DNA from: a phage
DNA: 64,000 nt
Assembly: GCA_014687725.1 (NCBI GenBank)
Contig: GCA_014687725.1_4094.1
Strand: one strand, 5' to 3'
A program made the translations under genes and the position numbers. The notes under the pieces were generated by a model that was not told the origin of the DNA, made no database searches, and saw only the letters and a list, made by a program, of their open reading frames with translations. Positions 1 to 32,919 of the stretch are shown in pieces. How positions within the stretch are numbered: the stretch's first letter is position 1; every line of letters starts with the position of its first letter.

Positions 1-1
1 A

Positions 2-15585: not shown

Positions 15586-15614
15586 TGATTGATATTAATT
15601 TTAAGGGAGTCCCT

Positions 15615-16860: not shown

Positions 16861-17071
16861 TAACTTTGAATACGAGGCCCGTGCTAAGAGTGCCAGAAAA
16901 AAAGAGAACACCATTTACTTCACTATGATGTACTTACAATGGACTGAAATTGAAGAAAAGGTTGCTGAAGTATGGATGTTGGAATTCATGGGGACGCAGT
17001 ATCAGAATAGGTTTGCGGGTGAGTATATCAATGTTCTTATGAAACAAATAGAAAGAAAGGAAAAGAACTAA
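16847..17071 (+). CDS. family A paralog
   Basis: motif MGTQYQNR. Confidence 0.65.
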   Translation: MNIINNFEYEARAKSARKKENTIYFTMMYLQWTEIEEKVAEVWMLEFMGTQYQNRFAGEYINVLMKQIERKEKN

Positions 17072-17229
17072 TGGTTTTCATTAACATATCTGACCAACTC
17101 GATACTAAACTAGAAGTCGAGCAGAGTGAGGGATGGATGCTGTACTTTCTTGGAACTTCTCATCAGAATTTTTATATCCATGAACACATAGTTGCACTCA
17201 AGAATTACATTATGGACAAATGCAAATGA
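17071..17229 (+). CDS. family A paralog, N-terminally shortened copy (52 aa)
   Basis: motif LGTSHQNF; C-terminus HIVALKNYIMDKC repeats that of the 16633-16860 copy; TAATG overlap; below track cut-off. Confidence 0.4.
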   Translation: MVFINISDQLDTKLEVEQSEGWMLYFLGTSHQNFYIHEHIVALKNYIMDKCK

Positions 17230-17483
17230 AATACTTAACACAAGATGAATATTCACTTAGAATTCGAAAGCTCACCCCAGAAGCAAGAGTAATCTACGAT
17301 GACCCCACCCTTACATGGAACCAAATGCGAGCTAAAGTTAATGAGCTATGGTTGCTGTACTTTATGGGGACTCAATATCAAGATAAGTTTTGCAAAGAAT
17401 TTGTCGATCAATTAATGAATGTTATACAGGATAAACTAGATGAATATTGGCTCGCAAAACATGAAGACTTTATCAGGAGTTGA
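17220..17483 (+). CDS. family A paralog
   Basis: motif MGTQYQDK. Confidence 0.65.
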   Translation: MQMKYLTQDEYSLRIRKLTPEARVIYDDPTLTWNQMRAKVNELWLLYFMGTQYQDKFCKEFVDQLMNVIQDKLDEYWLAKHEDFIRS

Positions 17484-17712
17484 GTATCAAACTGCCCTCT
17501 TCTCTCTTATTAACACCCTTAGAAAAAACAATGCATTACATGGTGCACCTGAAGTGGATGTTATCAACGGTGATGTTTATCTTATGAAATTCATTGGAAC
17601 AAACTATCAAGATCTGTTCATTCAACGATACTTGGCAGCATTAAGAAACCAAATCCAATATAAAACCCGTCAAGCCCAAAGAGAATGGAAGAGACAATGC
17701 GACAAAGACTAA
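17461..17712 (+). CDS. family A paralog
   Basis: motif IGTNYQDL; start uncertain (track 17440). Confidence 0.6.
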   Translation: MKTLSGVEYQTALFSLINTLRKNNALHGAPEVDVINGDVYLMKFIGTNYQDLFIQRYLAALRNQIQYKTRQAQREWKRQCDKD

Positions 17713-17945
17713 ATCACAAAATGTATTGTAAACTATTACAAACACTGGCACAGAAACACTATGACACCGTATCTGAAATATTACCCTATGATATCATGCG
17801 TTTAATTCATAGTGAGGCCGAGATGCTTGTACTGATGAGAGGGACTGATAAAACAGCAATAGCCAGATCGATTGAGCAATATATTGATGCACACTGCCAA
17901 CACATGAGAACCGAAATCTGGAGGAAAGAGAATGATAATCCTTAA
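17685..17945 (+). CDS. family A paralog (divergent)
   Basis: motif region MRGTDKTA; tandem position. Confidence 0.55.
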   Translation: MEETMRQRLNHKMYCKLLQTLAQKHYDTVSEILPYDIMRLIHSEAEMLVLMRGTDKTAIARSIEQYIDAHCQHMRTEIWRKENDNP

Positions 17946-18147
17946 TGAGTATCAGTATCATTGGAGGTTACAAACTATCAAATCAAAAGTGTATAGTATT
18001 GTGTTAAACAAATCTATTGCACAAGAGGACAAATGTGTTATAATAGCTGAAATGAAGTTGGGTGTATTCGTAGGGACAAACTATCAAAACATCTACACTG
18101 ACGTATTATTAAGTTCCTTACGTAACAAGGTGGTATCCAAAATATGA
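17932..18147 (+). CDS. family A paralog
   Basis: motif VGTNYQNI. Confidence 0.65.
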   Translation: MIILNEYQYHWRLQTIKSKVYSIVLNKSIAQEDKCVIIAEMKLGVFVGTNYQNIYTDVLLSSLRNKVVSKI

Positions 18148-18362
18148 GAAATTTACAAGGCTTTGAATACATCAGACTCCTGAAAACATGTGGAAGCAGA
18201 AGGAGAATGATATCAAGCGATAAGAGCATCCAAGCTAACCTTAAGCACGCACTAGTAACTGAACTCTATGTAGGTGCACTCTTAGGCACAAACTATCAAC
18301 AAATGTATGTAGATCTATGGATTGACGCTCTACAGAAAGAGGTTAAAAGTAAATGCAAATGA
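18144..18362 (+). CDS. family A paralog
   Basis: motif LGTNYQQM; ATGA overlap. Confidence 0.65.
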   Translation: MRNLQGFEYIRLLKTCGSRRRMISSDKSIQANLKHALVTELYVGALLGTNYQQMYVDLWIDALQKEVKSKCK

Positions 18363-18571
18363 TTAATTTAAGTAAAGACGAATTTTATGTTATACTGGCG
18401 AAAACTTATCCAGCACGTAAGGCCGTTTATGATAGTCACATTATTGAACCCTCAAAGAAGTTGATTTTAGTAAATGAGATAAAGATGCTTTCAGTCTTAG
18501 GAACAAACTATCAAGAGAATGCTGTACTGATGTTAATTGATGCCCTCCAGCGAGAGGTTAAACGTAAATGA
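18353..18571 (+). CDS. family A paralog
   Basis: motif LGTNYQEN. Confidence 0.65.
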   Translation: MQMINLSKDEFYVILAKTYPARKAVYDSHIIEPSKKLILVNEIKMLSVLGTNYQENAVLMLIDALQREVKRK

Positions 18572-18798
18572 AAATGATTCATTTAACTTACCATGAATAT
18601 CAAAAACGTTTAAATGCATCCAGAGATATAAGGATTCAAATATTCAATAACAAAAGATTGAAGCCTGATATCAGAAAAATCAAAATTATAGAAGCAGAGT
18701 TATGCAACTTTCTAGGGACCAACTATCAGGCAGGTAAGGTAAAAAACTATCTTAGAGAACTAATGAATAGTATTGAAAATAAATGTAAGGGTAATTAA
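18568..18798 (+). CDS. family A paralog
   Basis: motif LGTNYQAG; ATGA overlap. Confidence 0.65.
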   Translation: MKMIHLTYHEYQKRLNASRDIRIQIFNNKRLKPDIRKIKIIEAELCNFLGTNYQAGKVKNYLRELMNSIENKCKGN

Positions 18799-18799
18799 C

Positions 18800-19039
18800 A
18801 TGAAAATGATTAAATTATCTCAAGCAAAATATAAAGAACGCCTGGTGAAAATTGCACCTGGACTTAATGAAATCCATCACGGAGAAGTCATTAAACACGG
18901 AAATAAGATGATTATGAAACTTGAGTTAAAGGTGGGTGCATTCATAGGAACAAACTATCAGGAGTATTATGTAGATGAATACATAATCGCACTTAAGAGA
19001 TACATTGGAAGAAAACTATATCTACAAACTAAAGAATAG
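18800..19039 (+). CDS. family A paralog
   Basis: motif IGTNYQEY; ATG 18800 right after upstream TAA (track TTG 18773). Confidence 0.6.
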   Translation: MKMIKLSQAKYKERLVKIAPGLNEIHHGEVIKHGNKMIMKLELKVGAFIGTNYQEYYVDEYIIALKRYIGRKLYLQTKE

Positions 19040-19068
19040 TATTGAAAATAAATGTGAGGTTGATGAAC

Positions 19069-19332
19069 ATGCAAATGATCAATTTAAGTAAAGATGAATA
19101 TACCGAGCGTATGACAAAAATTACGCACAAACGTAATACAATCTATCACAACCCAGAAATTCAACACAGTAAGAAAATGATTATGATGCGTGAGTTAAAG
19201 ATGGGTGTATTCTTAGGAACAAACTATCAAGATACAGAAGTAAATCGCTTAATCGCGGAGTTACTACTGGAAATCAGAGGTAAGCTGTACTTTCATCAAA
19301 TGACCCAACCACTGAGGTGTACTAAGAAATGA
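19069..19332 (+). CDS. family A paralog
   Basis: motif LGTNYQDT; start uncertain (track TTG 19042). Confidence 0.6.
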   Translation: MQMINLSKDEYTERMTKITHKRNTIYHNPEIQHSKKMIMMRELKMGVFLGTNYQDTEVNRLIAELLLEIRGKLYFHQMTQPLRCTKK

Positions 19333-19544
19333 TCAACATCACATTGCAAGAAAGATTCATCCGAATCAACTATGCAATTACCAAATTAGATGCTACTATA
19401 GGATTCCAAAGTCTACCATACAAAACCAGATTGTTATTAGAGTGTGAAGCTAAGTTGGGTGTACTGTTAGGGACGCAACACCAACAACGATATGTGGAAA
19501 TCTGGATTGACCTTTTAACCCAAAATATATATGAGAGAATGTAA
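19329..19544 (+). CDS. family A paralog
   Basis: motif LGTQHQQR; ATGA overlap. Confidence 0.65.
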   Translation: MINITLQERFIRINYAITKLDATIGFQSLPYKTRLLLECEAKLGVLLGTQHQQRYVEIWIDLLTQNIYERM

Positions 19545-19775
19545 ATGCAAAATGAAATGATATACTTAACGAATGAAGAATTTCAAGAGAAGATGTTAAA
19601 AACCAAAAACATTACTCTTAAGTTCGTTCCAAATCAATCAATATCTGAAGTATCTGCAAATGTATTGTTTCAGAAGCTACCATACGTTCTTGGAACTGAT
19701 AAACAAGAATTTATGGTTCAAAATATGATTGAACATCTTATAATGAGTATTAAGGAAAAAGTTAATGCAAAATGA
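19545..19775 (+). CDS. family A paralog (long-N variant)
   Basis: motif LGTDKQEF. Confidence 0.65.
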   Translation: MQNEMIYLTNEEFQEKMLKTKNITLKFVPNQSISEVSANVLFQKLPYVLGTDKQEFMVQNMIEHLIMSIKEKVNAK

Positions 19776-20019
19776 AATGATATACTTAACCTATAATGAA
19801 TACGTCGAGAGATTAGTTCGTGCCAAGAGATATACCAATAAACGTCCAATTGACCTAAACCAAACCCCAGCAGAAAGGAGTGCAGAAGTATTATTCCAAT
19901 CACTACCATATCTTCTGGGAACTGATAGACAAGAGGAATATGTTGCACGTATGATTAGATATCTTAAAATCACTATTAAGGAAAAAGTAAATGCAAATGA
20001 AATACTTAACAGACGATGA
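19765..20019 (+). CDS. family A paralog (long-N variant)
   Basis: motif LGTDRQEE; first 33 nt identical to the 19545 copy. Confidence 0.65.
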   Translation: MQNEMIYLTYNEYVERLVRAKRYTNKRPIDLNQTPAERSAEVLFQSLPYLLGTDRQEEYVARMIRYLKITIKEKVNANEILNRR

Positions 20020-20242
20020 GTTAAAAGAACGACTAATTAAATCAAGAAAACATACAAATCAACTTCCAAACGACACAAACAAGTCTCCAGCGGAAAGGAG
20101 TGCAGAAGTTTTATACATTCAACTCATGTACTTTCTTGGCACTGACAGACAAGAGTATTACATTGAAAGTATGCTTCGATATCTTAAATTCTCTATAAAG
20201 GAAAAGATACATGATCAAGTATTTAAAAATCCTAACAGTTAA
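19991..20242 (+). CDS. family A paralog (long-N variant)
   Basis: motif LGTDRQEY. Confidence 0.65.
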   Translation: MQMKYLTDDELKERLIKSRKHTNQLPNDTNKSPAERSAEVLYIQLMYFLGTDRQEYYIESMLRYLKFSIKEKIHDQVFKNPNS

Positions 20243-20453
20243 TGAATATCATAAGATTGTAATGAAAACTAATAGTGCTTACGCTAAAAAATCAAACCCA
20301 AAGTACATACTGGAACACACATTTGAAGAACGTCAATTAGCTTTAGTTGAAGCAAAACTTCTTGCACTATTAGGAACAAACTATCAGGAAGAATACAATA
20401 GAAAACTAATATACCTTTTAACTAAACATATAAGAAAAAGAAAAAATGCATGA
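20211..20453 (+). CDS. family A paralog
   Basis: motif LGTNYQEE. Confidence 0.65.
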   Translation: MIKYLKILTVNEYHKIVMKTNSAYAKKSNPKYILEHTFEERQLALVEAKLLALLGTNYQEEYNRKLIYLLTKHIRKRKNA

Positions 20454-20680
20454 AACACTTGACAGATGATGAACATGGGCTTATAGTAATGGATGTAATC
20501 AACATCGAATACAAAAAGTTGATACGCTATCGTTGTTATGAAGATAAGCAACTCGTTCTAGCAGAACAGAAGTTGTTTCGACTCTTAAACACAAACTACC
20601 AAGCACAATACGAAGAATCGTATATGTACCTTTTGGCGAGGAAAGCAAAAAGAGATTATGAAAATTTTAAGCAAAGGTGA
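20450..20680 (+). CDS. family A paralog
   Basis: motif LNTNYQAQ; ATGA overlap. Confidence 0.65.
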   Translation: MKHLTDDEHGLIVMDVINIEYKKLIRYRCYEDKQLVLAEQKLFRLLNTNYQAQYEESYMYLLARKAKRDYENFKQR

Positions 20681-20879
20681 TTCAGTAATATTACTTATAG
20701 AGAGTTCAAGTAAATTCTTAAACATAACACTGTCTGATATAGATGAAGATGACAAAGAAGTACTGAGAGCAGATTTAAGAGTACTGTTACATATCGGAAC
20801 AAACCTACAAGAAGAATATGTAGAGTGCTACATCAATGAACTTAAAGAATCAGTACTGAGAAAATGCAAATGCAAATGA
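20658..20879 (+). CDS. family A paralog
   Basis: motif IGTNLQEE. Confidence 0.65.
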   Translation: MKILSKGDSVILLIESSSKFLNITLSDIDEDDKEVLRADLRVLLHIGTNLQEEYVECYINELKESVLRKCKCK

Positions 20880-21097
20880 AAATCATTACCGATGTAGAAT
20901 ACCTAACAATCATAAATGGACTGTTTTTGAAGCTCTTCGTCATTAACACATCAGATATACCAGATATGGATAAAATTATTAAGAGAAATGAAGTCTATGT
21001 TCTAGCTACCCTTGGAACGAACTATCAAGAACACGACATTAAAGATTATATTAATACACTTAAACGAGCTATTGAACTAAAATGCCAAAACCACTAG
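20864..21097 (+). CDS. family A paralog
   Basis: motif LGTNYQEH. Confidence 0.65.
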   Translation: MQMQMKIITDVEYLTIINGLFLKLFVINTSDIPDMDKIIKRNEVYVLATLGTNYQEHDIKDYINTLKRAIELKCQNH

Positions 21098-21297
21098 GAA
21101 CAGCAGAATACATTGAACTCATGGGATTACACTTCTCATCCTTTCAGAAACTTATGCGAGAATCAAAGAATGATTTAGAATATACCATCAGAGGTTCCGA
21201 TTTAAGAATGCTTCTCACCCTAGACACAGATTCCCAAGAGCGATTTGTCAATGAGCATATTAGAGCACTTTTAATGGAAATTAAAAGTAAACTATGA
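21082..21297 (+). CDS. family A paralog
   Basis: motif LDTDSQER. Confidence 0.65.
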   Translation: MPKPLGTAEYIELMGLHFSSFQKLMRESKNDLEYTIRGSDLRMLLTLDTDSQERFVNEHIRALLMEIKSKL

Positions 21298-21509
21298 AGA
21301 TAATATCAAACCAAGAGTACTTGGCACTATTCAGGAAGAATAATCACAAATATATGGCACTTGATTCAAGAACTGATATAAGTGAACTTGAAAAAAATCT
21401 TTTGCGTTCAGATATGATAGTACTGACACTCTTAGGAACACAGCATCAAGAGAGAACTGTTAATTCATACATAGGTATTCTTATACAGATAGTACAGGAA
21501 AAGATATGA
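21294..21509 (+). CDS. family A paralog
   Basis: motif LGTQHQER; ATGA overlap. Confidence 0.65.
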   Translation: MKIISNQEYLALFRKNNHKYMALDSRTDISELEKNLLRSDMIVLTLLGTQHQERTVNSYIGILIQIVQEKI

Positions 21510-21727
21510 GAATCATAACACAACAAGATATTCTTAAGTTCACAAGGGTTCATGCATCTGAATTTGATGCTATATTATCAAAAAGTTACAATGACCCTTA
21601 TACACAAGATGTACATTACAGTGAATTATGGATGTATATACTTTTAGGTACAAATAAGCAAGAGCAAGCCGTACAGAAGTATTTGACAGCTTTACGTGAT
21701 GCTACTGCTAATGGAGTATGTGTTTAA
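21506..21727 (+). CDS. family A paralog
   Basis: motif LGTNKQEQ; ATGA overlap. Confidence 0.65.
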   Translation: MRIITQQDILKFTRVHASEFDAILSKSYNDPYTQDVHYSELWMYILLGTNKQEQAVQKYLTALRDATANGVCV

Positions 21728-21728
21728 T

Positions 21729-21971
21729 ATGAAAGTACTGACAGAACTAGAAATGTATCATAGATTTAATAAGTACTATCATTTACTTAAGCCTATACAG
21801 AGGATTAAATGTCCATTTGAAGAGAAACAGGTTTTAATCTATGAGCACAAGTTCTTTGTATCATTAGGTACAGATCAACAAGAGTACTATTTGACGTTGT
21901 ACTTGATTACATTAATAGATTTAATTCACTATAAAACCAAACAAGCTAATAAAGAGAAATATGAAAACTAA
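21729..21971 (+). CDS. family A paralog
   Basis: motif LGTDQQEY; ATG 21729 just after upstream TAA (track 21696). Confidence 0.6.
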   Translation: MKVLTELEMYHRFNKYYHLLKPIQRIKCPFEEKQVLIYEHKFFVSLGTDQQEYYLTLYLITLIDLIHYKTKQANKEKYEN

Positions 21972-22305
21972 TATACAACTCAAGGTATATAAATCATTTG
22001 AACATACATATATCAAAAGTAGTCTATGTAGAGATGTAATGGATTACAAGGGTAAGCCATTCACAATTACCTATGATTCTTATGTTAGTGATTTATATAT
22101 ATCATTTGTTAATTACGAAAATAAAATATACAAGCACGTTGATATTAAAGATTTAAGTACTTTATCACCAGAGGAATACTTTCAGGAATCATTAGTATGG
22201 GATTTAGAGTTTCCTATGCCATTAGTACATAAGATGATAGTACTAATGAAAGAATCTAAACAGGAGCCTAATGGTGATTATGAAGAACACACAGTTGAGT
22301 ATTAA
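21961..22305 (+). CDS. family B paralog (EEYFQ-motif protein)
   Basis: motif LSPEEYFQESLVWD. Confidence 0.65.
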   Translation: MKTNIQLKVYKSFEHTYIKSSLCRDVMDYKGKPFTITYDSYVSDLYISFVNYENKIYKHVDIKDLSTLSPEEYFQESLVWDLEFPMPLVHKMIVLMKESKQEPNGDYEEHTVEY

Positions 22306-22675
22306 AAGTACTGATAATACTAAGAGTTATACAAGCTCAAGTACTGTGACAATCGAAGTGAATTCTATTAATGCTGGTAATGCAGTAGATAAGTTCTTTA
22401 TTGCTCAAGGGTACAGGAAAGATATTCATCAATATTGTTCAGTATATGGGGAGTACAATTCTACTGAAGATATAATTTATTGGTCAACACATCAAGATTA
22501 TATAACTAAAATTGGCGTTCCAGATGTTAGTACTTTATCTGAAGAAGAATACTTTCAGTACAGCTTAGTACATGATGTACCTATACCTTTAGGGTTAATC
22601 AAGGGTATGCAGGAAGAGGTTCATAAGCTTAAATCCATGAGTTCAGGTACTTTCATTAGAACAGTGCAATACTAG
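22271..22675 (+). CDS. family B paralog
   Basis: motif LSEEEYFQYSLVHD; start uncertain (alt ATG 22280). Confidence 0.6.
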   Translation: MVIMKNTQLSIKSTDNTKSYTSSSTVTIEVNSINAGNAVDKFFIAQGYRKDIHQYCSVYGEYNSTEDIIYWSTHQDYITKIGVPDVSTLSEEEYFQYSLVHDVPIPLGLIKGMQEEVHKLKSMSSGTFIRTVQY

Positions 22676-22676
22676 C

Positions 22677-22705
22677 TTGACAGTACTTTTCATTACTGAT
22701 ATAGT
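22677..22705 (+). promoter_or_regulatory. sigma70-like promoter inside array
   Basis: TTGACA 22677-22682, 17-nt spacer, TATAGT 22700-22705. Confidence 0.55.
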
Positions 22706-22734
22706 ACACTAACGTTAATCATAGGGTAAAAATT

Positions 22735-22980
22735 ATGTTAAATTTTTTAAATTTCCTTATCGTTTTGTGTATTGTTCTTGGGATTGCACCATTTGTATTG
22801 TATTTCATGGATTCAGATGAAATGCAGAAGATGAATTGCACAAGGACAGGACAGAGTAGAGAAGAGACGATTCTTATGCCTGTTACGGTTATTGTTAACA
22901 ACATGCCCATTACAAACATGGTCCCTACCCTAACGACAACGTACCAGTACTCTTGTGCTGACGGAGAGAGGTGGAGATGA
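22735..22980 (+). CDS. hypothetical small membrane protein (81 aa)
   Basis: N-terminal hydrophobic helix MLNFLNFLIVLCIVLGIAPFVLYF; own promoter. Confidence 0.55.
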   Translation: MLNFLNFLIVLCIVLGIAPFVLYFMDSDEMQKMNCTRTGQSREETILMPVTVIVNNMPITNMVPTLTTTYQYSCADGERWR

Positions 22981-23297
22981 AATTTAATATAGCAAAAACA
23001 TCGAGTATATGTATTTTTGGTTATGCAGAAGAGTTAGGTGATATTGACATTCTTTTGTACAAAAAGGATGGTGTTATGCATTTCAAGTACCAGGATGAAG
23101 AGGCAGACAATTATCCTTTACCTAATTTAGTACAAATGCAGGAAGATGAATTATTCCAGTACAGCTTAATATACGACATTGATATTTGCACGATGCCAGT
23201 ACTAATTAGTATTCAAAAAGTGATGCTCGATATGTATGATAAGCTAATACAAGGTACATCAGGGAGAATCATTGAAATCGATATACAAGACAATTAA
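22977..23297 (+). CDS. family B paralog
   Basis: motif MQEDELFQYSLIYD; ATG 22977 in ATGA overlap (track GTG 22971). Confidence 0.6.
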   Translation: MKFNIAKTSSICIFGYAEELGDIDILLYKKDGVMHFKYQDEEADNYPLPNLVQMQEDELFQYSLIYDIDICTMPVLISIQKVMLDMYDKLIQGTSGRIIEIDIQDN

Positions 23298-23490
23298 TCA
23301 AGAATGGAAGACCCAAAAGTACAGGGAATTCAACAGGAATTTTACAAAAGATGCATTGAATTTAAAAACAACAGAGTTTGATATGTTTATTTTTCTTGGA
23401 ACACGTTCACAAGAACAATTTGTTCATTATTATATAAATTCGTTGCGAACGGAGATAGTATGCAAAACACAGGGTATTATAAAAAGGTAA
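23272..23490 (+). CDS. family A paralog (island inside family B block)
   Basis: motif LGTRSQEQ; TTG start with SD GGGAGA. Confidence 0.55.
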   Translation: MKSIYKTINQEWKTQKYREFNRNFTKDALNLKTTEFDMFIFLGTRSQEQFVHYYINSLRTEIVCKTQGIIKR

Positions 23491-23726
23491 ACCAATATTT
23501 GTACGCTACAAAGTACAGGGATTTTTGTTTAAAGGGTGGTGATGAAGATTTTTCTTTGCGATTATCAGAATTTAATCTGTTATTTTATCTTGGTACAAAA
23601 GAACAAGAAGAAATGGCACAGAAATTTATCAAGCACCTTGTACAAAAAATTAATATGCAAATTTTGATGCTTAAGATACAGAATGAGATAAATGAATATG
23701 AATCCAGAAATAGTTCAGGATCTTAA
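23460..23726 (+). CDS. family A paralog (island)
   Basis: motif LGTKEQEE; ATG with SD GGAG. Confidence 0.6.
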   Translation: MQNTGYYKKVNQYLYATKYRDFCLKGGDEDFSLRLSEFNLLFYLGTKEQEEMAQKFIKHLVQKINMQILMLKIQNEINEYESRNSSGS

Positions 23727-25282: not shown

Positions 25283-25820
25283 AATTCAGTACACCTACGC
25301 TAATGCAATCCTTATGGGACAAAAGTTAGCTTGTATTGTTGCAGCCTTATATAATGCCCAGAAATATCACAAGCGTCATTTCCACAAATGTATTGGTATT
25401 ATTCCATCGAAGTACAATACATATATTGCGTGCACGAGTCATTTTGATAAACGATTCAATACACCTGATACCCCAAATTCCCGTAGTGTTATTGGTCTTT
25501 TGGATTTCGCACCTGGTGCTGTTATTGGAAAGAATGATTTAGAGTACGCATGGTATAATAAAAATGCCCCATTAGTAATGGTAACATATGATAAAGAAAC
25601 GAACAAAACAATAGAGTACAATACATATAAATCAGAGGAAGAATTTTTCCAAGGTTCAATGCTTGTACCAGTGCGTTTGTTATTTTATAATGTCATAATG
25701 AGTACAGTACACAATAGTCCATTACACAAGAATCACAAAATTAATTTCAATTTTTGTGCTTATGCGATTGATGGTGTGTATGAGTGTTTAATGGAGGTAT
25801 TGAGTTATGAAGCTGAATAA
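25254..25820 (+). CDS. family B paralog
   Basis: motif KSEEEFFQGSMLV. Confidence 0.65.
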   Translation: MTSKYRTSNEIQYTYANAILMGQKLACIVAALYNAQKYHKRHFHKCIGIIPSKYNTYIACTSHFDKRFNTPDTPNSRSVIGLLDFAPGAVIGKNDLEYAWYNKNAPLVMVTYDKETNKTIEYNTYKSEEEFFQGSMLVPVRLLFYNVIMSTVHNSPLHKNHKINFNFCAYAIDGVYECLMEVLSYEAE

Positions 25821-26148
25821 TACATTTGATATTAATAAGTTAAGAGAATGGTTTTATAGTATTGAAATTGAAGCCATCCCGTATCATAGATATGAACAAT
25901 ATAATTTAACCAGTATTGATATCAGTGAGTTGTACGCGTATTATCAAAGTGCATTAGAGATGCATAAGTTATTTTTGAGTACAGATTTTGTTCTAAATTA
26001 CAATTTTGAGGAATTTAAAAATTATAATTTAGTACAGAAATATGTAGTAGCAAAGTACATGTACCTTCAAGGAATTACAAGTATAGTGGAATTCAATACA
26101 GTCCTTGCTTTAGTTGAGGTAATTTTATGCAGTACATGTATGATTTAG
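25807..26148 (+). CDS. hypothetical protein (113 aa), array member
   Basis: Track ORF; no clear family motif. Confidence 0.5.
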   Translation: MKLNNTFDINKLREWFYSIEIEAIPYHRYEQYNLTSIDISELYAYYQSALEMHKLFLSTDFVLNYNFEEFKNYNLVQKYVVAKYMYLQGITSIVEFNTVLALVEVILCSTCMI

Positions 26149-26633
26149 AGTTCAGCTTAGATGCTGCATTTAAATATGTTCACAAGATAGAAACAATATA
26201 CAGTACATTATGTGCAATAAAATCAGTAACAGAAGAGCTTGATGTTGGTGAAAAATATCAGGTATGGAATAATACATTTTTAAATAAAGAACGTTGCTCT
26301 ACGGGGTTTAATATTTTAACATTTAATCCCAGCAATTGTTACCCAGAGAAGCATGAACGTTATCCGAATGACGACATGTGGTTTGAGTACAAAGAAGATT
26401 GTGATATGTCGTTCATTGAAGTTCCTGATGATTTTAATGCACAAGATTTAACAGACGAGTGGTGGTTCCAGCAGAATTTAGTCCACGATGATATTGATTT
26501 ATTTTTTTATGTAGTATTTAAAATGCTTTATCACAACAATATAGTACAAGATAGTGTGTTTTTTTCATGTCTATATATTGATGATTTGTACAATGAAATT
26601 CAAATCAACATGCCCAGCACGCCTGTATCGTAA
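26127..26633 (+). CDS. family B paralog
   Basis: motif LTDEWWFQQNLVHD. Confidence 0.65.
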   Translation: MQYMYDLEFSLDAAFKYVHKIETIYSTLCAIKSVTEELDVGEKYQVWNNTFLNKERCSTGFNILTFNPSNCYPEKHERYPNDDMWFEYKEDCDMSFIEVPDDFNAQDLTDEWWFQQNLVHDDIDLFFYVVFKMLYHNNIVQDSVFFSCLYIDDLYNEIQINMPSTPVS

Positions 26634-26649
26634 GATATGGGCTTTTTTC
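26612..26649 (+). terminator. terminator-like hairpin + T-run
   Basis: 5-bp stem GCCCA/TGGGC with long loop, then T6. Confidence 0.4.
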
Positions 26650-26658
26650 GTTTTGGTA

Positions 26659-26687
26659 TTGACAAAGAAGTGCAAAGCTGTTATCAT
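26659..26687 (+). promoter_or_regulatory. sigma70-like promoter inside array
   Basis: TTGACA 26659-26664, 17-nt spacer, TATCAT 26682-26687. Confidence 0.5.
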
Positions 26688-26715
26688 GTGTAATCATTTT
26701 AAAGGAGAACATATA

Positions 26716-27228
26716 GTGAGTTTCATAATCCCAAGTACATACGAAGATGCATCAAGTGCAGTTCATAAGATTCATTATATTTTTAATTTAATTATTAGAT
26801 CTGCAAAAATTAAAATGTATGCACCTCTTGTGACAAATAATCGAAATGAAGAAATTTTTATTAGCACAGACAAAATTATTTTTCCATATTTCAATGAAGA
26901 TAGATTGTGGTTCATACATTTAGCTGCATTACAAAAATATAAGATGTCAATTCGTAATAATTTGGTTATACCGTTATATCATCCAGATATTGGAGAGGAT
27001 GAGTATTTTCAGTACAGTACAGTGCATCGCCATGAAGATATCTTTGTTGCTATGCTTATTGCTAAATTGAACACCGTTGATTTGGAGTACCACAAATACA
27101 ATAATAAATCATGTAAGATCATAATCCCTGCATTCATAGCTCTTTATGATTATGTGGTGCATAACAAAAAAGATGATACATATGCTTTCAATGAAGAGTA
27201 TTTGGATTTTTTTAAGGATAACATATGA
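26716..27228 (+). CDS. family B paralog
   Basis: motif IGEDEYFQYSTVH; GTG 26716 with SD AAAGGAG (track ORF began upstream at 26554; alt ATG 26683). Confidence 0.55.
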   Translation: MSFIIPSTYEDASSAVHKIHYIFNLIIRSAKIKMYAPLVTNNRNEEIFISTDKIIFPYFNEDRLWFIHLAALQKYKMSIRNNLVIPLYHPDIGEDEYFQYSTVHRHEDIFVAMLIAKLNTVDLEYHKYNNKSCKIIIPAFIALYDYVVHNKKDDTYAFNEEYLDFFKDNI

Positions 27229-27764
27229 GCAGTACAACAGTATCAAAAGTACAGAAAGCAATGTCATTCAATGAAATTGGTACATTTAAAGATAAGATCA
27301 TTGATTGCCTTGAATACATGATTTGTAGTAATATCGAAAGTATCGAGATATTTAACAAGACAAATCGCTCTTACCATATGATGTACATTGCAAACAATAA
27401 TGGTATCATTCCATTTATTTCGGATAGTACAATATGGTACGCATGTGATACGAAAAAATACACAGCAGGTTCGTATAGCTTAGGGTCACATACGGAATTG
27501 ATTATTCCTGAGCATTGTATGAAAGAAGAAGAATATTTTCAAATGCAATGTATACATTCACCATTAGTGTTGTTTAGTTTATATATTATACCTTATATCA
27601 CCAAATGTGTTCATGAGAATAAAGCTCCGTGGAATCATGAATTTGTATCGTTGAAGTTATTGTATAATGTATTAGTAGAATATTATGATTACAGGCACAA
27701 TGGTACAATCAGTGATGTATGGGATTTTGAATCGCTAAGGGTGAAAACATACACAGGTGAATGA
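27225..27764 (+). CDS. family B paralog
   Basis: motif MKEEEYFQMQCIH; ATGA overlap. Confidence 0.65.
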   Translation: MSSTTVSKVQKAMSFNEIGTFKDKIIDCLEYMICSNIESIEIFNKTNRSYHMMYIANNNGIIPFISDSTIWYACDTKKYTAGSYSLGSHTELIIPEHCMKEEEYFQMQCIHSPLVLFSLYIIPYITKCVHENKAPWNHEFVSLKLLYNVLVEYYDYRHNGTISDVWDFESLRVKTYTGE

Positions 27765-27765
27765 T

Positions 27766-28380
27766 ATGACCAGAATTAAAATGTATGATTTGATGCAGTA
27801 CAGTAAAATTGCCATTCCAGTGCTTAATAAAGTGCTGGATGCATTCATTGCCAAATACCCTGAGAATTCAGTGTTATGTATTCCATTTAGTGTTCCAGAT
27901 AAAGATGATATATTCCAAGTGAATGTCAGTACACGTGGTATTACATTACAGCAGAAATACATGGATACGGAATATTATGGAATAAAGTTGGATTCAGTAC
28001 AGGGTTCAAAATCAGCCTATGATTTTTTTGTTCCTAATAATATAGAGTCATGGGAAACAAACATTTCAAAGAAAGATGAAAATGATGTTCCTATTAGTGG
28101 TGTGTTCAACAATAAAGTTTTTTATTATTACGAAACCGACAAATTCCCTGAAGAGTTATATTACAATTCAGAAATGAATGAAGATGTAGATGCATTCATG
28201 TTTCAATTATCTTTAGTACATGATATCATTGATGTTCAAGAGTTAAGAGCAGAAATCAATTTAGCTAAAGAGTTATCGGACATGCTGCCACCGTTTAGTA
28301 TGCTTTTTTGTGAAGGTGGTTATTTTTCAAAAGAAGTGTTTGAACATTTCGTAGATGTTGTAAAAGGGTTGGATATATAG
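27766..28380 (+). CDS. family B paralog
   Basis: motif DVDAFMFQLSLVHD; ATG 27766 with SD AGGTGA (track GTG 27757). Confidence 0.6.
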   Translation: MTRIKMYDLMQYSKIAIPVLNKVLDAFIAKYPENSVLCIPFSVPDKDDIFQVNVSTRGITLQQKYMDTEYYGIKLDSVQGSKSAYDFFVPNNIESWETNISKKDENDVPISGVFNNKVFYYYETDKFPEELYYNSEMNEDVDAFMFQLSLVHDIIDVQELRAEINLAKELSDMLPPFSMLFCEGGYFSKEVFEHFVDVVKGLDI

Positions 28381-28381
28381 T

Positions 28382-28576
28382 ATGCTTACAGTTGATGTTA
28401 AACAAAAATACCGTAAGTTTGATTGGTTCACCGACAGTTTCCAGCTTGAATTATTACATTTGAATATCTGTGAAACATTATGTGCAGAAACACAAGATGA
28501 ATTTGATGATAGAGTGATGAACATAGTAATGCTTTCTTGCTTTAAACATTTTGGTTATTTTTTCGGACAGAATTGA
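28382..28576 (+). CDS. hypothetical small protein (64 aa)
   Basis: Track ORF. Confidence 0.5.
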   Translation: MLTVDVKQKYRKFDWFTDSFQLELLHLNICETLCAETQDEFDDRVMNIVMLSCFKHFGYFFGQN

Positions 28577-28584
28577 GGTAAAAA

Positions 28585-29100
28585 ATGCATCAACACAAGC
28601 ATCATTCATATGATTTTGCAATTAACATTATGAAGTTCATTCGAGCGTTGGAGGATGGGAAGCTTAGTCATAAGTACACCAAAGTGGGTGACAATTGGTT
28701 CAGAAATGATGATGAGTTCAGAAGTCATAAGATTGTTTACAGCAATAATTACAGTGCCAATTACCTACAAGATGTAGTGATGTGTTTTGAATACGTGTTG
28801 CAGTTCAGGGGTTCAATCCAGGATGAGTTGATGGAGCACATGTACATCCGATACCTTCCAATGCTCAAAGATGAAAATGTATTATTAAATTCAATATACC
28901 AACGAGTTCGTGAAATTGAGTGCAGGGATATATTAGATACAGAAGAATCGTATTTCCAGCAATCCCTGATTTATGCACCTGATTTATTACAGGTACATAA
29001 TTTGTTTAATACATTACGTCAAAACATCAGTACAGACATATTTTTGTCATTATCGGATTATGATACATTTGTCAAAGATTTAGAGGAAATAGGTTTATGA
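28585..29100 (+). CDS. family B paralog
   Basis: motif TEESYFQQSLIY; SD GAGG. Confidence 0.65.
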   Translation: MHQHKHHSYDFAINIMKFIRALEDGKLSHKYTKVGDNWFRNDDEFRSHKIVYSNNYSANYLQDVVMCFEYVLQFRGSIQDELMEHMYIRYLPMLKDENVLLNSIYQRVREIECRDILDTEESYFQQSLIYAPDLLQVHNLFNTLRQNISTDIFLSLSDYDTFVKDLEEIGL

Positions 29101-29441
29101 GTCGATTTTCGGTTTATATAGTAAACGTCAGTAAAGATGGTAGTTTAATTGAATTTGATGTAGTTGATAACAATGATAATTCATATGGTATTAAGGTACA
29201 GGACAATGATGTACAGTTCAGTACAAGGACAAATTTTGAGAATCCAGTCCAAGTTCCGAATTTCATAGAAGATGAAGCTGCACGATTCCAATACGAAACG
29301 GCATATGACAATGTACATATGCATATTATTATGCAAACGAGTTTAGTTCAATTAGTTCCTTTGTTCAGACAAAATATATATGTACATGAAGTGTCGATTA
29401 ATGGCATTCAAAGTTCCGTTTTGTTCGGTACAAATATGTAA
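29097..29441 (+). CDS. family B paralog (divergent)
   Basis: motif EDEAARFQYETAYD; ATGA overlap. Confidence 0.6.
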   Translation: MSRFSVYIVNVSKDGSLIEFDVVDNNDNSYGIKVQDNDVQFSTRTNFENPVQVPNFIEDEAARFQYETAYDNVHMHIIMQTSLVQLVPLFRQNIYVHEVSINGIQSSVLFGTNM

Positions 29442-29451
29442 GGAAAGTACA

Positions 29452-30003
29452 ATGAGTTCAATGAGTTTATTAGATACATTAGAAAAAGACAGAAGTGCAA
29501 TTAAGCGTTTAAAAGAGCAAGTACAAAAGATTGTATACAACGTTGATAAGTTTGAAGTCCCAGGAAGATTTGGTGATATTTCCCATACGGAGATCAAATC
29601 CCTTAAGTCAGATTTGTTGATTAAAAATAAAAATGGGTTGATTTTAGTTTTGAGTTCAGATATGATGGGGGCAACACATAGTTATAATGCAGTATCGGTG
29701 CGTTCAGAGTGTGAAGGTATATATCTATCACAGGGTTTCAATAGCGAGACACAGGTTTGTTTTTGTGATGCAGTACATGACCCTATGAAGTTCACGAGAA
29801 GTGAAGCCCAAGCGTTATTAGAGCTATCAGACGAGAGTTTGTTTCAGTACAGTACAATGTATGACAATGATAAGCTTCGTTGTATGTACGCTGTAAAGCA
29901 TTATACACAGGAGTTTTCTGGATTTGCATACCTTTTAGTTAGAACCAATACCAGATATATTGATATGTTAGAAGATTACATCGATAAAGTTGTTAATGTA
30001 TGA
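29452..30003 (+). CDS. family B paralog
   Basis: motif SDESLFQYSTMYD; ATG 29452 with SD AAGGAAAG (track 29380 overlaps upstream gene). Confidence 0.65.
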   Translation: MSSMSLLDTLEKDRSAIKRLKEQVQKIVYNVDKFEVPGRFGDISHTEIKSLKSDLLIKNKNGLILVLSSDMMGATHSYNAVSVRSECEGIYLSQGFNSETQVCFCDAVHDPMKFTRSEAQALLELSDESLFQYSTMYDNDKLRCMYAVKHYTQEFSGFAYLLVRTNTRYIDMLEDYIDKVVNV

Positions 30004-30185
30004 TGTATGATTATGTGATGGTATAATGCTGATGAAAGAGTTATTTGAAGATCAGTTCAATACATATGTGGATAATATTCTTTATTCCAGCCGTGCTAGT
30101 CAACGAGGAAATCGTGCTTACAATATAGATTACCTATTAGTGGTGCTGAGTTCACAGTACACCTACGCTGTACAGAGGACATATT

Positions 30186-30389
30186 ATGAATAATTTTAGA
30201 GATGTTGCTAAGGAGAAGTTCAAGTGCAGTTTAGATTTTGGGTTAAATGATTTTCTGACATGCACAATGTACAGGAATGATGATTATGAGCAATCCGTAA
30301 TTTCGTTGCACAGATATTTCGAAATAATTTACGCAAGATATCTTAGAAGGTTAGAGGGAATAGGGGATTGGAATTATGATTACGTTTGA
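30186..30389 (+). CDS. hypothetical small protein (67 aa)
   Basis: Track ORF after 180-bp gap with extended -10 TGGTATAAT 30020-30028. Confidence 0.5.
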   Translation: MNNFRDVAKEKFKCSLDFGLNDFLTCTMYRNDDYEQSVISLHRYFEIIYARYLRRLEGIGDWNYDYV

Positions 30390-30600
30390 AGAGCCGGAAG
30401 TGGCATATTGCTTTAGTGTGAAAGGTTTTGAATTCATGATGGATTCTATTTTGAAGGATACATATTTGGTTCAGATTGCAGTTGCAGATAATACAGATAA
30501 TGCATTACAGCGAGTATTGAATATATACGAGAGGACGAGTCGAAGGCTTTGTGCAATGAAAAGGATTGAAGAAATCAAGGTTTCTAGGCTGAATAAATAG
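30376..30600 (+). CDS. hypothetical small protein (74 aa)
   Basis: Track ORF. Confidence 0.5.
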   Translation: MITFEEPEVAYCFSVKGFEFMMDSILKDTYLVQIAVADNTDNALQRVLNIYERTSRRLCAMKRIEEIKVSRLNK

Positions 30601-30798
30601 AGACGTTTCATTTTGACAGGCCGCAGGGGGGGGTCAAAAAAATTTCCGCTGAAAAACATGCTAAGGTATATGTTTAATATAAAGTTTTATATTGTGTTTT
30701 TCAGAGTACAGTTCATGTTTCCTGAAACAAAAAATACCCCGCCGCCGAACGTTCTCCTTATATTGGAGTTTACCTTATTAATTATAGTAGAGATTAAG

Positions 30799-31176
30799 AT
30801 GGAAATAAAATATAATGAATTTTGTGCAAGGACATGGATGTACACTGGTGAGTTAGTTACGCACTCTAACTTATACAAGGGTGATTTAAACTACGCTAGG
30901 GACAAGATTTTAAAGTACTGGAATGCTGACTTTTATTTGATGGATTTTAGTACTGGGTTTAGGGGTAAAGCAACCGAGATGTTGGACTATACAGTACTTG
31001 ATGATGCTGCACTGTTTCAGGCGGCATTAGTATTTGATAAGAAGTACATCTGTACATTAGAAGAGATGATTGAATTACAGCGTAGAATTAAATGTATTCA
31101 CAGGGAATGTATAGATATCTGGTGCAGTACTGGTGAAGATGATTTTTGTAATCATTTCAATCTAGGGGAAGTGTGA
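30799..31176 (+). CDS. family B paralog
   Basis: motif LDDAALFQAALVFD; ATG 30799; track start 30613 (TTG) runs through a G8 tract and non-coding-looking sequence. Confidence 0.55.
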   Translation: MEIKYNEFCARTWMYTGELVTHSNLYKGDLNYARDKILKYWNADFYLMDFSTGFRGKATEMLDYTVLDDAALFQAALVFDKKYICTLEEMIELQRRIKCIHRECIDIWCSTGEDDFCNHFNLGEV

Positions 31177-31337
31177 TGGAATTTGATTTTTTAATATCAG
31201 TACATTCTTTTAAGCACAGTTATCAGTACTTTTGTAATTTAAACAAAGGTGATTTGATTATGGATACAGATACAGAGGCTGTATACAGTTCTAATATTCT
31301 GTACAAATTCAGTACTAATCTGAAGGAGATTTTATGA
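31176..31337 (+). CDS. family B paralog, truncated N-terminal duplicate (53 aa)
   Basis: first 27 codons near-identical to gene 31705-32061 (MEFDFLISVH(S/T)FKHSYQYFCNLNKGDL); likely recombination remnant. Confidence 0.4.
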   Translation: MEFDFLISVHSFKHSYQYFCNLNKGDLIMDTDTEAVYSSNILYKFSTNLKEIL

Positions 31338-31705
31338 AAAAAGAAATTAGAATTCAATTCGGTATGAGGAAAAAAGAGGTCATCTGTACACTGAATCATG
31401 CGGTCGTGGAAAGCCTTGGTGGTGCATTACAAAAATTCTCCCATTTTGTTCTTGTACTATATGAAAATGGGTCTTTTAAAATCTTCACATATGATGATTC
31501 AAAAAATTACCGTAATGATTTTGTAAATCTGACAGTACTGTCAGAAGAGGAATTCTTTCAGGAAAGTACTGTCTGGAATTTACCAGGAGCACCAATTGAA
31601 TACGTCCGTGCTACACAGGCAGAAATGATCAAAGTAATGCAGAACTATCCAGAAGATTATATGACTAAGTTTCCTGAATCTATTTATGTAGAGGTTGAGT
31701 ACTGA
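31334..31705 (+). CDS. family B paralog
   Basis: motif LSEEEFFQESTVW; ATGA overlap. Confidence 0.65.
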   Translation: MKKEIRIQFGMRKKEVICTLNHAVVESLGGALQKFSHFVLVLYENGSFKIFTYDDSKNYRNDFVNLTVLSEEEFFQESTVWNLPGAPIEYVRATQAEMIKVMQNYPEDYMTKFPESIYVEVEY

Positions 31706-32061
31706 TGGAATTTGATTTTTTAATATCAGTACATACTTTCAAGCACAGTTATCAGTACTTTTGTAATTTAAACAAAGGTGATTTAATGCACAGTGCAAAT
31801 GAGTATATTCATTACACTCAGGGTAAATTTACATTCATTGATTACAGTTCATTACAGTATCCACACCAAGATATGCCGGACTATACATTAATGGATACCG
31901 CAGAACTATTCCAAGAATCATTAGTATTTGATAAGAAGTACTTGTGTACATTTGAAGAAGTTATTGCAATACAAAATGAAATGAAAGAGTATGCTGCTTT
32001 GCATAAACCCAATGCAAGTATTAATCAAGAATACAAATTCAATTTAGGAATTCAAGAATGA
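31705..32061 (+). CDS. family B paralog
   Basis: motif MDTAELFQESLVFD. Confidence 0.65.
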   Translation: MEFDFLISVHTFKHSYQYFCNLNKGDLMHSANEYIHYTQGKFTFIDYSSLQYPHQDMPDYTLMDTAELFQESLVFDKKYLCTFEEVIAIQNEMKEYAALHKPNASINQEYKFNLGIQE

Positions 32062-32417: not shown

Positions 32418-32426
32418 GATTATAAA

Positions 32427-32918: not shown

Positions 32919-32919
32919 A

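What the first reader, a model, noticed from the sequence alone, without database searches (positions are those of the whole stretch)
17071..31790. Fossil recombination junctions and truncated paralog copies inside the array
(a) 17071-17229 is a 52-aa copy whose C-terminus HIVALKNYIMDKC repeats that of the copy at 16633-16860. (b) 31176-31337 (53 aa) duplicates the first 27 codons of gene 31705-32061 almost exactly, then diverges to a stop. (c) The junction sequence ATTGAAAATAAATGT..ATGAAAATGAT at 18770-18808 recurs at 19040-19078. (d) The start regions of 19545 and 19765 share an identical ~33-nt stretch (ATGCAAAATGAAATGATATACTTAAC). These look like footprints of unequal crossing-over or template switching that expands and contracts the array.
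Basis: seen in the sequence. Interest (0 to 1): 0.6.

Follow-up and report, generated by a model that had tools for sequence, protein, structure and literature searches.

The report
Recombination scars in jumbo-phage gene arrays
The four repeated stretches are real and sit at the crossover points where related giant E. coli phages have gained or lost whole genes from two long tandem gene families, an ordinary evolutionary process seen here in unusually clear detail.

Summary
The window comes from an Asteriusvirus jumbo coliphage (98.6% identical to vB_EcoM_G17 over 15-35 kb). All four observations are in the sequence and exceed chance:
- (a) 44/50 nt
- (b) 82/85 nt
- (c) a 269-nt tandem unit with 22 exact nt at the junction

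In 11 related genomes each site is a length polymorphism. Some relatives carry a single hybrid copy, and its switch from copy-1-like to copy-2-like sequence falls inside the flagged repeat:
- (a) 16805-16823
- (c) 18796-18803
- (d) 19543-19571
- (b) inside the 85-nt repeat

The 70-aa family ranges from 23 to 31 copies between genomes. Site (c) keeps a frame-shifted relic of the upstream gene's C-terminus, the expected product of an unequal crossover that duplicated a gene. UB has since lost one copy. At (a) and (b) the repeats were also homogenised by short exchange tracts, and the truncated copies carry further internal deletions.

Long and short states occur in all four combinations across genomes, so they are reassorting polymorphisms rather than dead fossils.

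Site (b) lies in a second, unrelated array. Both families are orphans of unknown function. The kind of process is well known; these arrays seem undescribed.

The parts
15585..21971 (+). Tandem array of about 70-aa paralogs (motif LGTNYQE; PHROG 4148). It holds 29 genes plus one relic fragment, mostly with overlapping stop/start codons.
   Evidence: ORFs and translations. A family HMM finds 30 domains. PHROG 4148, E about 1e-23. Alignment A1.
16803..16851 (+). Repeat (a), copy 1: the C-terminal tail of gene 16633-16860 (HIVALTNYIMDKC).
   Evidence: 88% over 50 nt to 17181-17230. In five relatives the alignment blocks end or begin here with a 50-nt overlap.
17071..17229 (+). Truncated 52-aa paralog. 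Repeat (a), copy 2, is at 17181-17230.
   Evidence: PHROG 4148 positions 27-72 only. A gap of about 23 columns in A1. Further decayed in UE-S1 (HMM positions 56-73 only). Absent from SHEFM2K, EC22.5-2, ECO103, UB and BF17. The same ORF family is seen on dozens of public contigs.
17200..17799 (+). Hyper-divergent mosaic patch that starts at junction (a).
   Evidence: 112 of the 283 window-vs-G17 differences in 20 kb fall here. The nearest relative changes every 100-200 nt.
18743..19011 (+). Unit 1 of the 269-nt tandem duplication (c): the tail of gene 18568-18798 plus most of gene 18800-19039.
   Evidence: Self-BLAST, 75% over 222 nt to 19012-19232. 121Q, TH47 and UB have one unit.
19012..19280 (+). 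Unit 2 of duplication (c). It includes a non-coding or frame-shifted relic of the upstream gene's C-terminus at 19008-19058, followed by gene 19069-19332.
   Evidence: The family HMM hits 19008-19058 at profile positions 57-73 in a frame different from that of the surrounding genes. Sequence. UB's crossover maps to 18796-18803.
19544..19570 (+). Repeat (d), copy 1: 27-nt exact repeat across the start of gene 19545-19775.
   Evidence: PBECO4 and BF17 hybrids switch parent between 19543 and 19571.
19764..19790 (+). Repeat (d), copy 2, across the start of gene 19765-20019. Genes 19545, 19765 and 19991 form a three-copy sub-cluster.
   Evidence: Relatives lack 220 nt (PBECO4, BF17), 226 nt (UE-S1) or 440 nt (121Q) here.
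21961..34318 (+). Verified part of a second tandem family (motif EEYFQxSLV; PHROGs 13866, 15629, 9317, 19795 and others), interrupted by two family-1 genes at 23272-23726. Motif-bearing ORFs continue to about 49 kb.
31174..31258 (+). Repeat (b), copy 1: the first 27 codons of the truncated paralog.
   Evidence: 82/85 nt identical to 31703-31787.
31176..31337 (+). Truncated 53-aa paralog of gene 31705-32061. Its N-terminus and a C-terminal remnant are kept and the middle is deleted.
   Evidence: Translation and alignment. 121Q has a 74-aa version. The window version lacks 63 nt that lie between TAATRTTCTGT direct repeats. SHEFM2K annotates it as PHROG 15629.
31334..31705 (+). Intact family-2 gene (PHROG 13866) lying between the two 85-nt repeats. 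It is lost together with the fragment in PBECO4, UB, UE-S1 and TH47.
31703..31787 (+). Repeat (b), copy 2: the start of the full-length gene 31705-32061.

Best explanation
The region holds two long tandem families of small orphan genes in an Asteriusvirus jumbo phage. The first family starts 68 nt inside the terminal-repeat boundary.

The arrays evolve by birth and death. Homologous exchange occurs between misaligned neighbouring paralogs, either within one replicating concatemer or between co-infecting relatives. The exchange uses short identical stretches of 17-85 nt at the gene-to-gene junctions: the C-terminal tail of one gene, the overlapping stop/start, and the first codons of the next gene. 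One product gains a whole gene unit and the reciprocal product loses it. Downstream genes stay intact because each unit carries its own start codon.

The four flagged sites are such junctions.
- (c) is a preserved duplication scar.
- (a), (b) and (d) are repeats across which relatives have a single hybrid copy.
- The truncated copies at (a) and (b) are decaying paralogs that have suffered additional internal deletions.
- Short conversion or exchange tracts have re-homogenised the repeats at (a) and (b).

Shown: the repeats, the copy-number polymorphism, the crossover positions, the relic, and the mosaicism.
Inferred: the molecular route (crossing-over versus template switching), the direction of some events, and any selective reason for the turnover.
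For: Identity of the genome: 98.6% to G17 over 20 kb; 36 Asteriusvirus records match.

The repeats are confirmed.

Indels in relatives have overlapping alignment blocks:
- (a) 378 nt missing in SHEFM2K, EC22.5-2, ECO103, UB and BF17
- (c) 269 nt missing in 121Q, TH47 and UB
- (d) 220 nt missing in PBECO4 and BF17
- (b) about 529 nt missing in PBECO4, UB, UE-S1 and TH47

Crossovers map inside the repeats: (a) 16805-16823, (c) 18796-18803, (d) 19543-19571.

Five of the six adjacent self-similar pairs in the array coincide with a deletion in at least one relative.

The main array has 23-31 copies and spans 5.0-6.55 kb.

A relic of the upstream C-terminus sits at 19008-19058. The 121Q and TH47 single copies look like mixed outgroups, whereas UB is 80 copy-2-like to 1 copy-1-like at the informative sites after the switch. 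This indicates both a gain and a later loss at the same site.

Homogenisation: in 121Q the two (b) repeats differ much more than in the window, and the window's copy 1 resembles 121Q's copy 2. In G17, PBECO4 and slurp01 the two (a) tails share only HIVAL.

A 63-nt deletion between 11-nt direct repeats lies inside fragment (b).

All four long/short combinations exist for site pairs a/b, a/d and b/d.

Both the truncated copy and the hybrid short-state protein occur on many independent public contigs.

Precedent: T4 amplifies and deletes segments by recombination at short homologies (PMC9391042).
Against: No reads or population data are available, so ongoing expansion and contraction is not shown directly.

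For (a), (b) and (d), the direction (deletion in relatives versus insertion in this lineage) rests on parsimony and on informative-site patterns, not on a rooted phylogeny. At (b) only three informative sites exist, and they are themselves polymorphic.

Some relatives are 'UNVERIFIED' short-read assemblies (TH47, EC22.5-2, ECO103).

Across all paralogs, average DNA conservation is highest at the central GTNYQ motif, not at the junctions. The junction preference therefore rests on only six or seven mapped events.
Confidence: 0.85

Rival explanations
1. The repeats are conserved because of function, not recombination. Possible functions are a shared protein terminus or a translational-coupling or ribosome-binding signal at gene junctions.
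For: N-terminal M-K-x-I/L and C-terminal I-x-x-K residues are conserved family-wide. Most genes overlap by ATGA-type junctions.
Against: Only specific pairs share 17 nt or more at junctions; the median longest shared word between copies is 9 nt. Identity includes synonymous positions. Relatives have deletions whose endpoints fall in exactly these repeats. The 13-aa tail identity at (a) is absent from G17, PBECO4 and slurp01.
Confidence: 0.05
2. The length differences are assembly artefacts: repeat collapse or mis-joins in this genome or in the relatives.
For: Several relatives are short-read assemblies. The Sharanji record carries a 77-nt terminal overlap inside fragment (b), typical of an assembler k-mer.
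Against: The repeats are 17-85 nt and imperfect, shorter than reads. The same states recur in independently assembled genomes from different laboratories and on many Logan/ENA contigs. The hybrid ORFs are intact and annotated.
Confidence: 0.03
3. There is no intragenomic unequal exchange. The states are old alleles that are merely reshuffled by ordinary, aligned homologous recombination between co-infecting relatives, and the repeats only mark mosaic block borders.
For: All four long/short combinations exist. A fine mosaic with about 100-nt blocks and alleles differing by more than 25% begins at junction (a).
Against: Aligned exchange cannot create the states in the first place. The relic at 19008-19058 and the hybrid copies require a misaligned exchange at least once per site. 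This rival is best seen as a second layer acting on top of the main explanation.
Confidence: 0.07
4. Site (b) is the insertion of a mobile gene cassette with a target duplication, for example a homing-type or transposon-like event.
For: An intact gene plus a fragment is flanked by 85-nt direct repeats and is absent from four relatives.
Against: The inserted gene is an ordinary member of the local family (PHROG 13866), with no nuclease or transposase hit in Pfam, PHROGs or NCBIfam. 85 nt is far longer than a target-site duplication. The fragment has its own decayed C-terminal remnant and a longer 74-aa form in 121Q, so it was once a full paralog.
Confidence: 0.02

Closest known systems
Segmental amplification and deletion in phage T4 by recombination at short homologies (dmd-tifA locus; Srikant et al. 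2022, PMC9391042; see also PMC13096335)
   Same: In a large lytic dsDNA coliphage, tandem gain and loss of gene units occurs by exchange between short direct repeats, and one repeat copy remains at the junction.
   Different: In T4 the events were watched in the laboratory, use 2-10 bp microhomologies, and make identical copies of a known anti-defence gene. Here they are inferred from natural isolates, use 17-85-nt homologies between old diverged paralogs, and the gene function is unknown.
Poxvirus 'genomic accordions' and gene-array homogenisation (K3L; PMC6115191)
   Same: Recombination-driven copy-number change and homogenisation occur within tandem arrays of a large dsDNA virus.
   Different: Poxvirus arrays are recent, near-identical copies under acute selection. 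These arrays have 23-31 long-diverged members (15-33% aa identity to the reference copy in A1) kept as a standing family.
Staphylococcus aureus lpl tandem paralog cluster (Tsuru and Kobayashi 2008, PMC2568036)
   Same: Multi-genome comparison of a tandem paralog cluster shows recombination at conserved stretches that shuffles, deletes and duplicates units. The 3' end of one gene plus the 5' end of the next behaves as a unit.
   Different: In lpl the exchange site is a central conserved region inside each ORF. Here the mapped crossovers lie at the gene junctions or tails, although a central conserved GTNYQ-coding stretch exists.
PeSL promoter-terminator cassettes that mediate modular shuffling in T4-type hyperplastic regions (PMC2839356, PMC4122927)
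   Same: Short repeated sequences at gene boundaries serve as portable homology for insertion, deletion and replacement between close relatives.
   Different: PeSLs are non-coding promoter/stem-loop motifs. The junction repeats here are coding and have no hairpin or promoter signal. A PeSL-like hairpin-promoter does occur upstream at 14033-14068, outside the finding.

Membership tests
Tandem paralog array evolving by unequal homologous recombination (birth-and-death with gene conversion) | Head-to-tail same-strand paralogs. | tested here: met
   29 consecutive family-1 genes at 15585-21971, and at least 19 family-2 ORFs from 22 to 49 kb, all on the + strand.
Tandem paralog array evolving by unequal homologous recombination (birth-and-death with gene conversion) | Copy-number differences between close relatives, in whole-unit steps. 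| tested here: met
   23-31 copies. Indels of 206-226, 269, 378 and 440 nt.
Tandem paralog array evolving by unequal homologous recombination (birth-and-death with gene conversion) | Breakpoints lie in sequence shared by the two units and leave a hybrid copy. | tested here: met
   Overlapping alignment blocks of 50, 85, 221-226 and 240 nt. Parent switches inside the repeats.
Tandem paralog array evolving by unequal homologous recombination (birth-and-death with gene conversion) | Homogenisation (conversion) tracts between paralogs. | tested here: inconclusive
   The patterns at (a) and (b) fit conversion. They could also be allelic patches imported from other phages.
Tandem paralog array evolving by unequal homologous recombination (birth-and-death with gene conversion) | Copy-number heterogeneity within a single population. 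| not testable with these tools
   No reads are available.
Genomic accordion in the poxvirus sense | Recent, near-identical tandem copies that rise and fall under selection. | tested here: not met
   Neighbouring copies are 70-78% identical in DNA at best. Only short junction stretches are near-identical.
PeSL-type regulatory cassette | The repeat contains an early promoter plus a terminator stem-loop. | tested here: not met
   No terminator-like hairpin lies at any of the four junctions. Promoter-like sites are not enriched (98 found vs 104 expected).
PHROG 4148 (70-aa family) | Significant full-length match to the profile. | tested here: met
   E 1e-22 to 1e-23 for full copies. The 52-aa copy matches positions 27-72 only.
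Programmed diversification system (DGR, invertible or cassette-switching locus) | An associated reverse transcriptase or site-specific recombinase, with template/variable repeat pairs. | not tested
   No such gene was seen among the ORFs inspected at 14-34 kb. The rest of the genome was not examined.

The most novel reading that the evidence does not exclude
The arrays may be a selected diversification device rather than passive duplicates. In this reading, conserved junction homologies are maintained so that whole-gene cassettes and hybrid proteins are generated at high frequency right next to the genome terminus. This would give the phage population a rapidly changing library of small early proteins aimed at host defences or host takeover, comparable to antigenic-variation gene families.
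Probability: 0.12. Interest if true: 0.7.

Novelty: new member of a known kind. Interest (0 to 1): 0.4.

Why it matters
Jumbo phages carry hundreds of orphan genes, and how that gene content is made and turned over is poorly documented.

These two arrays give a compact natural record of gene gain, loss, hybrid formation, decay and fine-scale mosaicism. It is readable at single-crossover resolution across about a dozen isolates.

Because both states of each junction are common, simple PCR or long-read assays could measure array dynamics. The same assays could test whether host defences select for particular copies.

The finding does not change what is known about how tandem families evolve.

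Tried and rejected
Searches for function led nowhere.
- Pfam and NCBIfam gave no hits, and PHROGs gave only 'unknown function' families.
- A PDB sequence profile search was empty.
- The afdb50 library was unavailable.
- An exhaustive profile search of 1.84 billion representatives found only 84 small proteins. The word-index search found only hits on roughly 350-kb E. coli-phage-like contigs. The family is therefore narrow.

Other checks.
- The promoter/terminator scan showed no enrichment and nothing at the junctions.
- There are no tRNAs and no Rfam matches.
- Recurrent 'breakpoints' at query 3744 and 19686 in the search table come from how that tool joins pieces. Direct alignment shows colinearity there.
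- The apparent start of the Sharanji record at the end of repeat (b) is an artefact of the same kind. That record is cut at window 31212-31288 with a 77-nt overlap and has the long state.
- The idea that PBECO4's single (b) copy is a clean copy-1/copy-2 chimera was dropped, because the diagnostic bases are polymorphic in 121Q and TH47.
- Literature searches found no description of these arrays in papers on CBB, Sharanji, UE-S1 or related phages.

Full report
WHAT THE WINDOW IS

The 15-35 kb stretch is 98.6% identical and colinear with Escherichia phage vB_EcoM_G17. It matches 36 Asteriusvirus records in the PBECO4/121Q group, which are jumbo phages of about 350 kb.

Position 1 of the linear G17 record corresponds to window 15517. 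This implies a terminal repeat of 20,668 bp in G17, the same length reported for Sharanji (PMC11895373). Window 1-15517 therefore lies in the direct terminal repeat, and the first array gene starts 68 nt beyond it.

THE TWO ARRAYS

- Family 1 occupies 15585-21971. It has 29 consecutive genes of about 70 aa on the + strand, mostly with overlapping stop/start codons. They share M-K-x-L at the N-terminus, a central LGTNYQE motif and I-x-x-K at the C-terminus, at 15-33% pairwise aa identity to the reference copy.
- Family 2 carries an EEYFQxSLV motif. It runs from 21961 to at least 34 kb, with motif-bearing ORFs out to about 49 kb.
- Items (a), (c) and (d) of the finding lie in family 1. Item (b) lies in family 2.

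CHECK OF THE OBSERVATION

All four items are real.
- (a) 16803-16851 vs 17181-17230: 44/50 nt, with a 17-nt exact core; 12/13 residues match.
- (b) 31174-31258 vs 31703-31787: 82/85 nt; 26/27 residues match.
- (c) 22 exact nt at 18765/19034, within a 269-nt period block that is 75% identical over 222 nt.

Shuffled arrays give longest exact repeats of 13.3 nt on average, with a maximum of 17. The median longest shared word between copies is 9 nt.

The 52-aa copy matches only profile positions 27-72 of PHROG 4148. In the alignment it lacks about 23 residues after a normal start.

The 53-aa fragment keeps the N-terminus and a C-terminal remnant (YKFSTNL vs YKFNLG) of its full-length neighbour.

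COMPARATIVE TEST

I aligned window 15-35 kb to 11 relatives: G17, SHEFM2K, EC22.5-2, ECO103 4-12-1, TH47, 121Q, PBECO4, slurp01, UB, UE-S1 and BF17. I then chained the alignments.

Every flagged site is a length polymorphism whose flanking alignment blocks overlap by the repeat. In other words, the relative has one copy of the repeat where the window has two.
- (a) 378 nt absent from SHEFM2K, EC22.5-2, ECO103, UB and BF17 (50-nt overlap); TH47 is similar.
- (c) 269 nt absent from 121Q, TH47 and UB (221-226-nt overlap).
- (d) 220 nt absent from PBECO4 and BF17; 226 nt absent from UE-S1 and 440 nt from 121Q, using neighbouring copies.
- (b) about 529 nt absent from PBECO4, UB, UE-S1 and TH47 (85-nt overlap). 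This removes the fragment and gene 31334-31705, so genes 30799-31176 and 31705-32061 become adjacent.

The window is itself the short state at two other sites.
- 20869-21064 is duplicated in PBECO4, slurp01, BF17 and UB.
- 24856-25028 flanks an extra gene in slurp01, BF17, EC22.5-2, ECO103 and TH47.

Main-array copy number ranges from 23 (121Q) to 31 (slurp01), and the window has 30. Five of the six adjacent self-similar pairs in the window's own dot-plot coincide with a unit deletion in some relative.

WHERE THE CROSSOVERS ARE

I took the positions where the two copies of the long state differ and scored which copy each relative's single copy resembles.
- (a) The switch lies between 16805 and 16823, inside ACACATAGTTGCACTCA.
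- (c) In UB the switch lies between 18796 and 18803. The gene body after it scores 80 copy-2-like to 1 copy-1-like at informative sites.
- (d) In PBECO4 and BF17 the switch lies between 19543 and 19571, which is the 27-nt repeat. Overall the copy scores 91 copy-2-like to 23 copy-1-like, almost all of the latter before the switch.
Both are at gene junctions.

All mapped exchanges therefore fall within about 45 nt of a start codon. Across the family, however, the best-conserved DNA is the central GTNYQ-coding stretch. The exchanges appear to use the particular long identities that neighbouring, recently related units share at their junctions.

DIRECTION OF EVENTS

Site (c) is a preserved duplication scar. 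The family HMM detects a C-terminal fragment (profile positions 57-73) at 19008-19058, in a frame different from that of the surrounding genes. This is a copy of the tail of gene 18568-18798, now sitting between the two duplicated genes.

That arrangement is the expected product of an exchange between the tail of gene 18800-19039 in one molecule and the tail of the upstream gene in another. A later frameshift gave gene 18800-19039 its odd ...YLQTKE ending.

The single copies in 121Q and TH47 resemble both window copies in a mixed pattern, as an outgroup would. UB's copy is purely copy-2-like, which indicates a secondary loss. So the same site shows both a gain and a loss.

For (a), (b) and (d), the hybrid patterns favour deletion in the relatives, but this is inference.

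DECAY AND HOMOGENISATION

- The (a) truncated copy is further reduced to a C-terminal remnant in UE-S1.
- The (b) fragment is 74 aa in 121Q. In the window it has lost 63 nt that lie between TAATRTTCTGT direct repeats.
- In 121Q the two (b) repeats differ at about ten positions, and the window's copy 1 resembles 121Q's copy 2 rather than its positional counterpart.
- In G17, PBECO4 and slurp01 the two (a) tails share only HIVAL.
- That lineage-specific identity coincides with the left edge of a 600-nt patch (17200-17799) holding 112 of the 283 differences from G17. Within the patch the nearest relative changes every 100-200 nt.

These features indicate short exchange or conversion tracts. Whether the donors were paralogs in the same genome or alleles in other phages is not resolved.

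POPULATION PICTURE

Long and short states occur in all four combinations for site pairs a/b, a/d and b/d. For example, across the a/b pair the window is L/L, PBECO4 L/S, SHEFM2K S/L and UB S/S. The states are therefore reassorted or recurrent.

The truncated 52-aa protein and the 72-aa hybrid short-state protein each occur on dozens of independent public contigs. This argues against assembly artefacts.

FUNCTION

Function is unknown for both families.
- Pfam, NCBIfam and PDB-sequence searches were empty, and the PHROG families are unannotated.
- The family-1 model (pLDDT 96) and the family-2 model (pLDDT 83) have no specific structural neighbour.
- Family 1 has only 84 cluster representatives among 1.84 billion proteins, all of them small.

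The arrays sit next to the terminal repeat, are co-oriented and have operon-like packing. From this I infer, without a test, that they are early genes for host takeover or counter-defence.

COMPARISON WITH KNOWN SYSTEMS

The mechanism matches several well-known cases:
- T4 segmental amplification and deletion at short homologies (PMC9391042).
- Poxvirus gene-array dynamics (PMC6115191).
- The S. aureus lpl tandem cluster (PMC2568036).
- Functionally, the PeSL-mediated shuffling of T4-type phages (PMC2839356).

It differs from each in detail: old diverged copies, coding junction homologies, and no promoter/hairpin motif.

I found no paper describing these arrays.

VERDICT

- Observation: confirmed.
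- Interpretation: supported.
- Novelty: a new, well-resolved example of a known process.

Noticed in passing
window 15517 (and 1-15517): Position 1 of the linear G17 record maps to window 15517. This implies a 20,668-bp direct terminal repeat, the same length published for Sharanji. The 70-aa array therefore starts 68 nt inside the terminal-repeat boundary, just after a promoter-like TTGACT...TAAAAT at 15557-15584.
   Followed up: partly
window 1-15000, e.g. 2493-2611/2790-2905, 9075-9181/9344-9452, 8486-8580/14020-14114, 11896-11989/14595-14690: A dispersed family of 60-230-nt repeats at 75-93% identity lies between small genes in the terminal-repeat part. At 14033-14068 a 12-bp hairpin contains a TTGACT box and is followed by TATTAT. 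This is reminiscent of T4-type PeSL promoter-terminator cassettes.
   Followed up: no
window 20869-21064 and 24856-25028: At these two sites the window is the short state. PBECO4, slurp01, BF17 and UB carry an extra 206-220-nt family-1 copy at the first site. slurp01, BF17, EC22.5-2, ECO103 and TH47 carry an extra gene of about 575 nt (PSLUR01_00252) at the second site, flanked by a 173-nt repeat.
   Followed up: partly
window 32403-34748: Five tandem PHROG 9317 genes show long blocks of 70-88% identity and a 46-nt exact repeat (32735/34574) encoding EVLEGPWDSEEYYFQ.
   Followed up: no
window 17218-17240 and 19989-20011: A 23-nt exact repeat (AAATGCAAATGAAATACTTAACA) links two non-adjacent gene junctions 2.8 kb apart. 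The copy at 17218 is exact only in this genome among the 12 compared, which suggests a recent short conversion or imported patch.
   Followed up: partly
L012/L013 (Sharanji OR545507 ends) = window 31212-31288: The Sharanji record begins and ends with the same 77 nt, a typical assembler k-mer overlap of a circularised contig. The record is cut inside the truncated fragment gene. It is 99.9% identical to the window there and has the long state.
   Followed up: yes
L010 15253-15981 (UE-S1), equivalent to window 30799-32061 minus the 529-nt unit: In UE-S1 the two neighbouring family-2 genes are annotated as one 242-aa fusion ORF, because the stop codon of the upstream gene is lost at the short-state junction.
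   Followed up: partly
window 22978: UB carries a 1,238-nt insertion and TH47 a 341-nt insertion at this point, without junction homology. In UB the stretch includes an 810-nt CDS. The content was not examined.
   Followed up: no
window 23272-23726: Two divergent family-1 members (HMM positions about 19-72) sit apart from the main array, embedded in the family-2 array.
   Followed up: no
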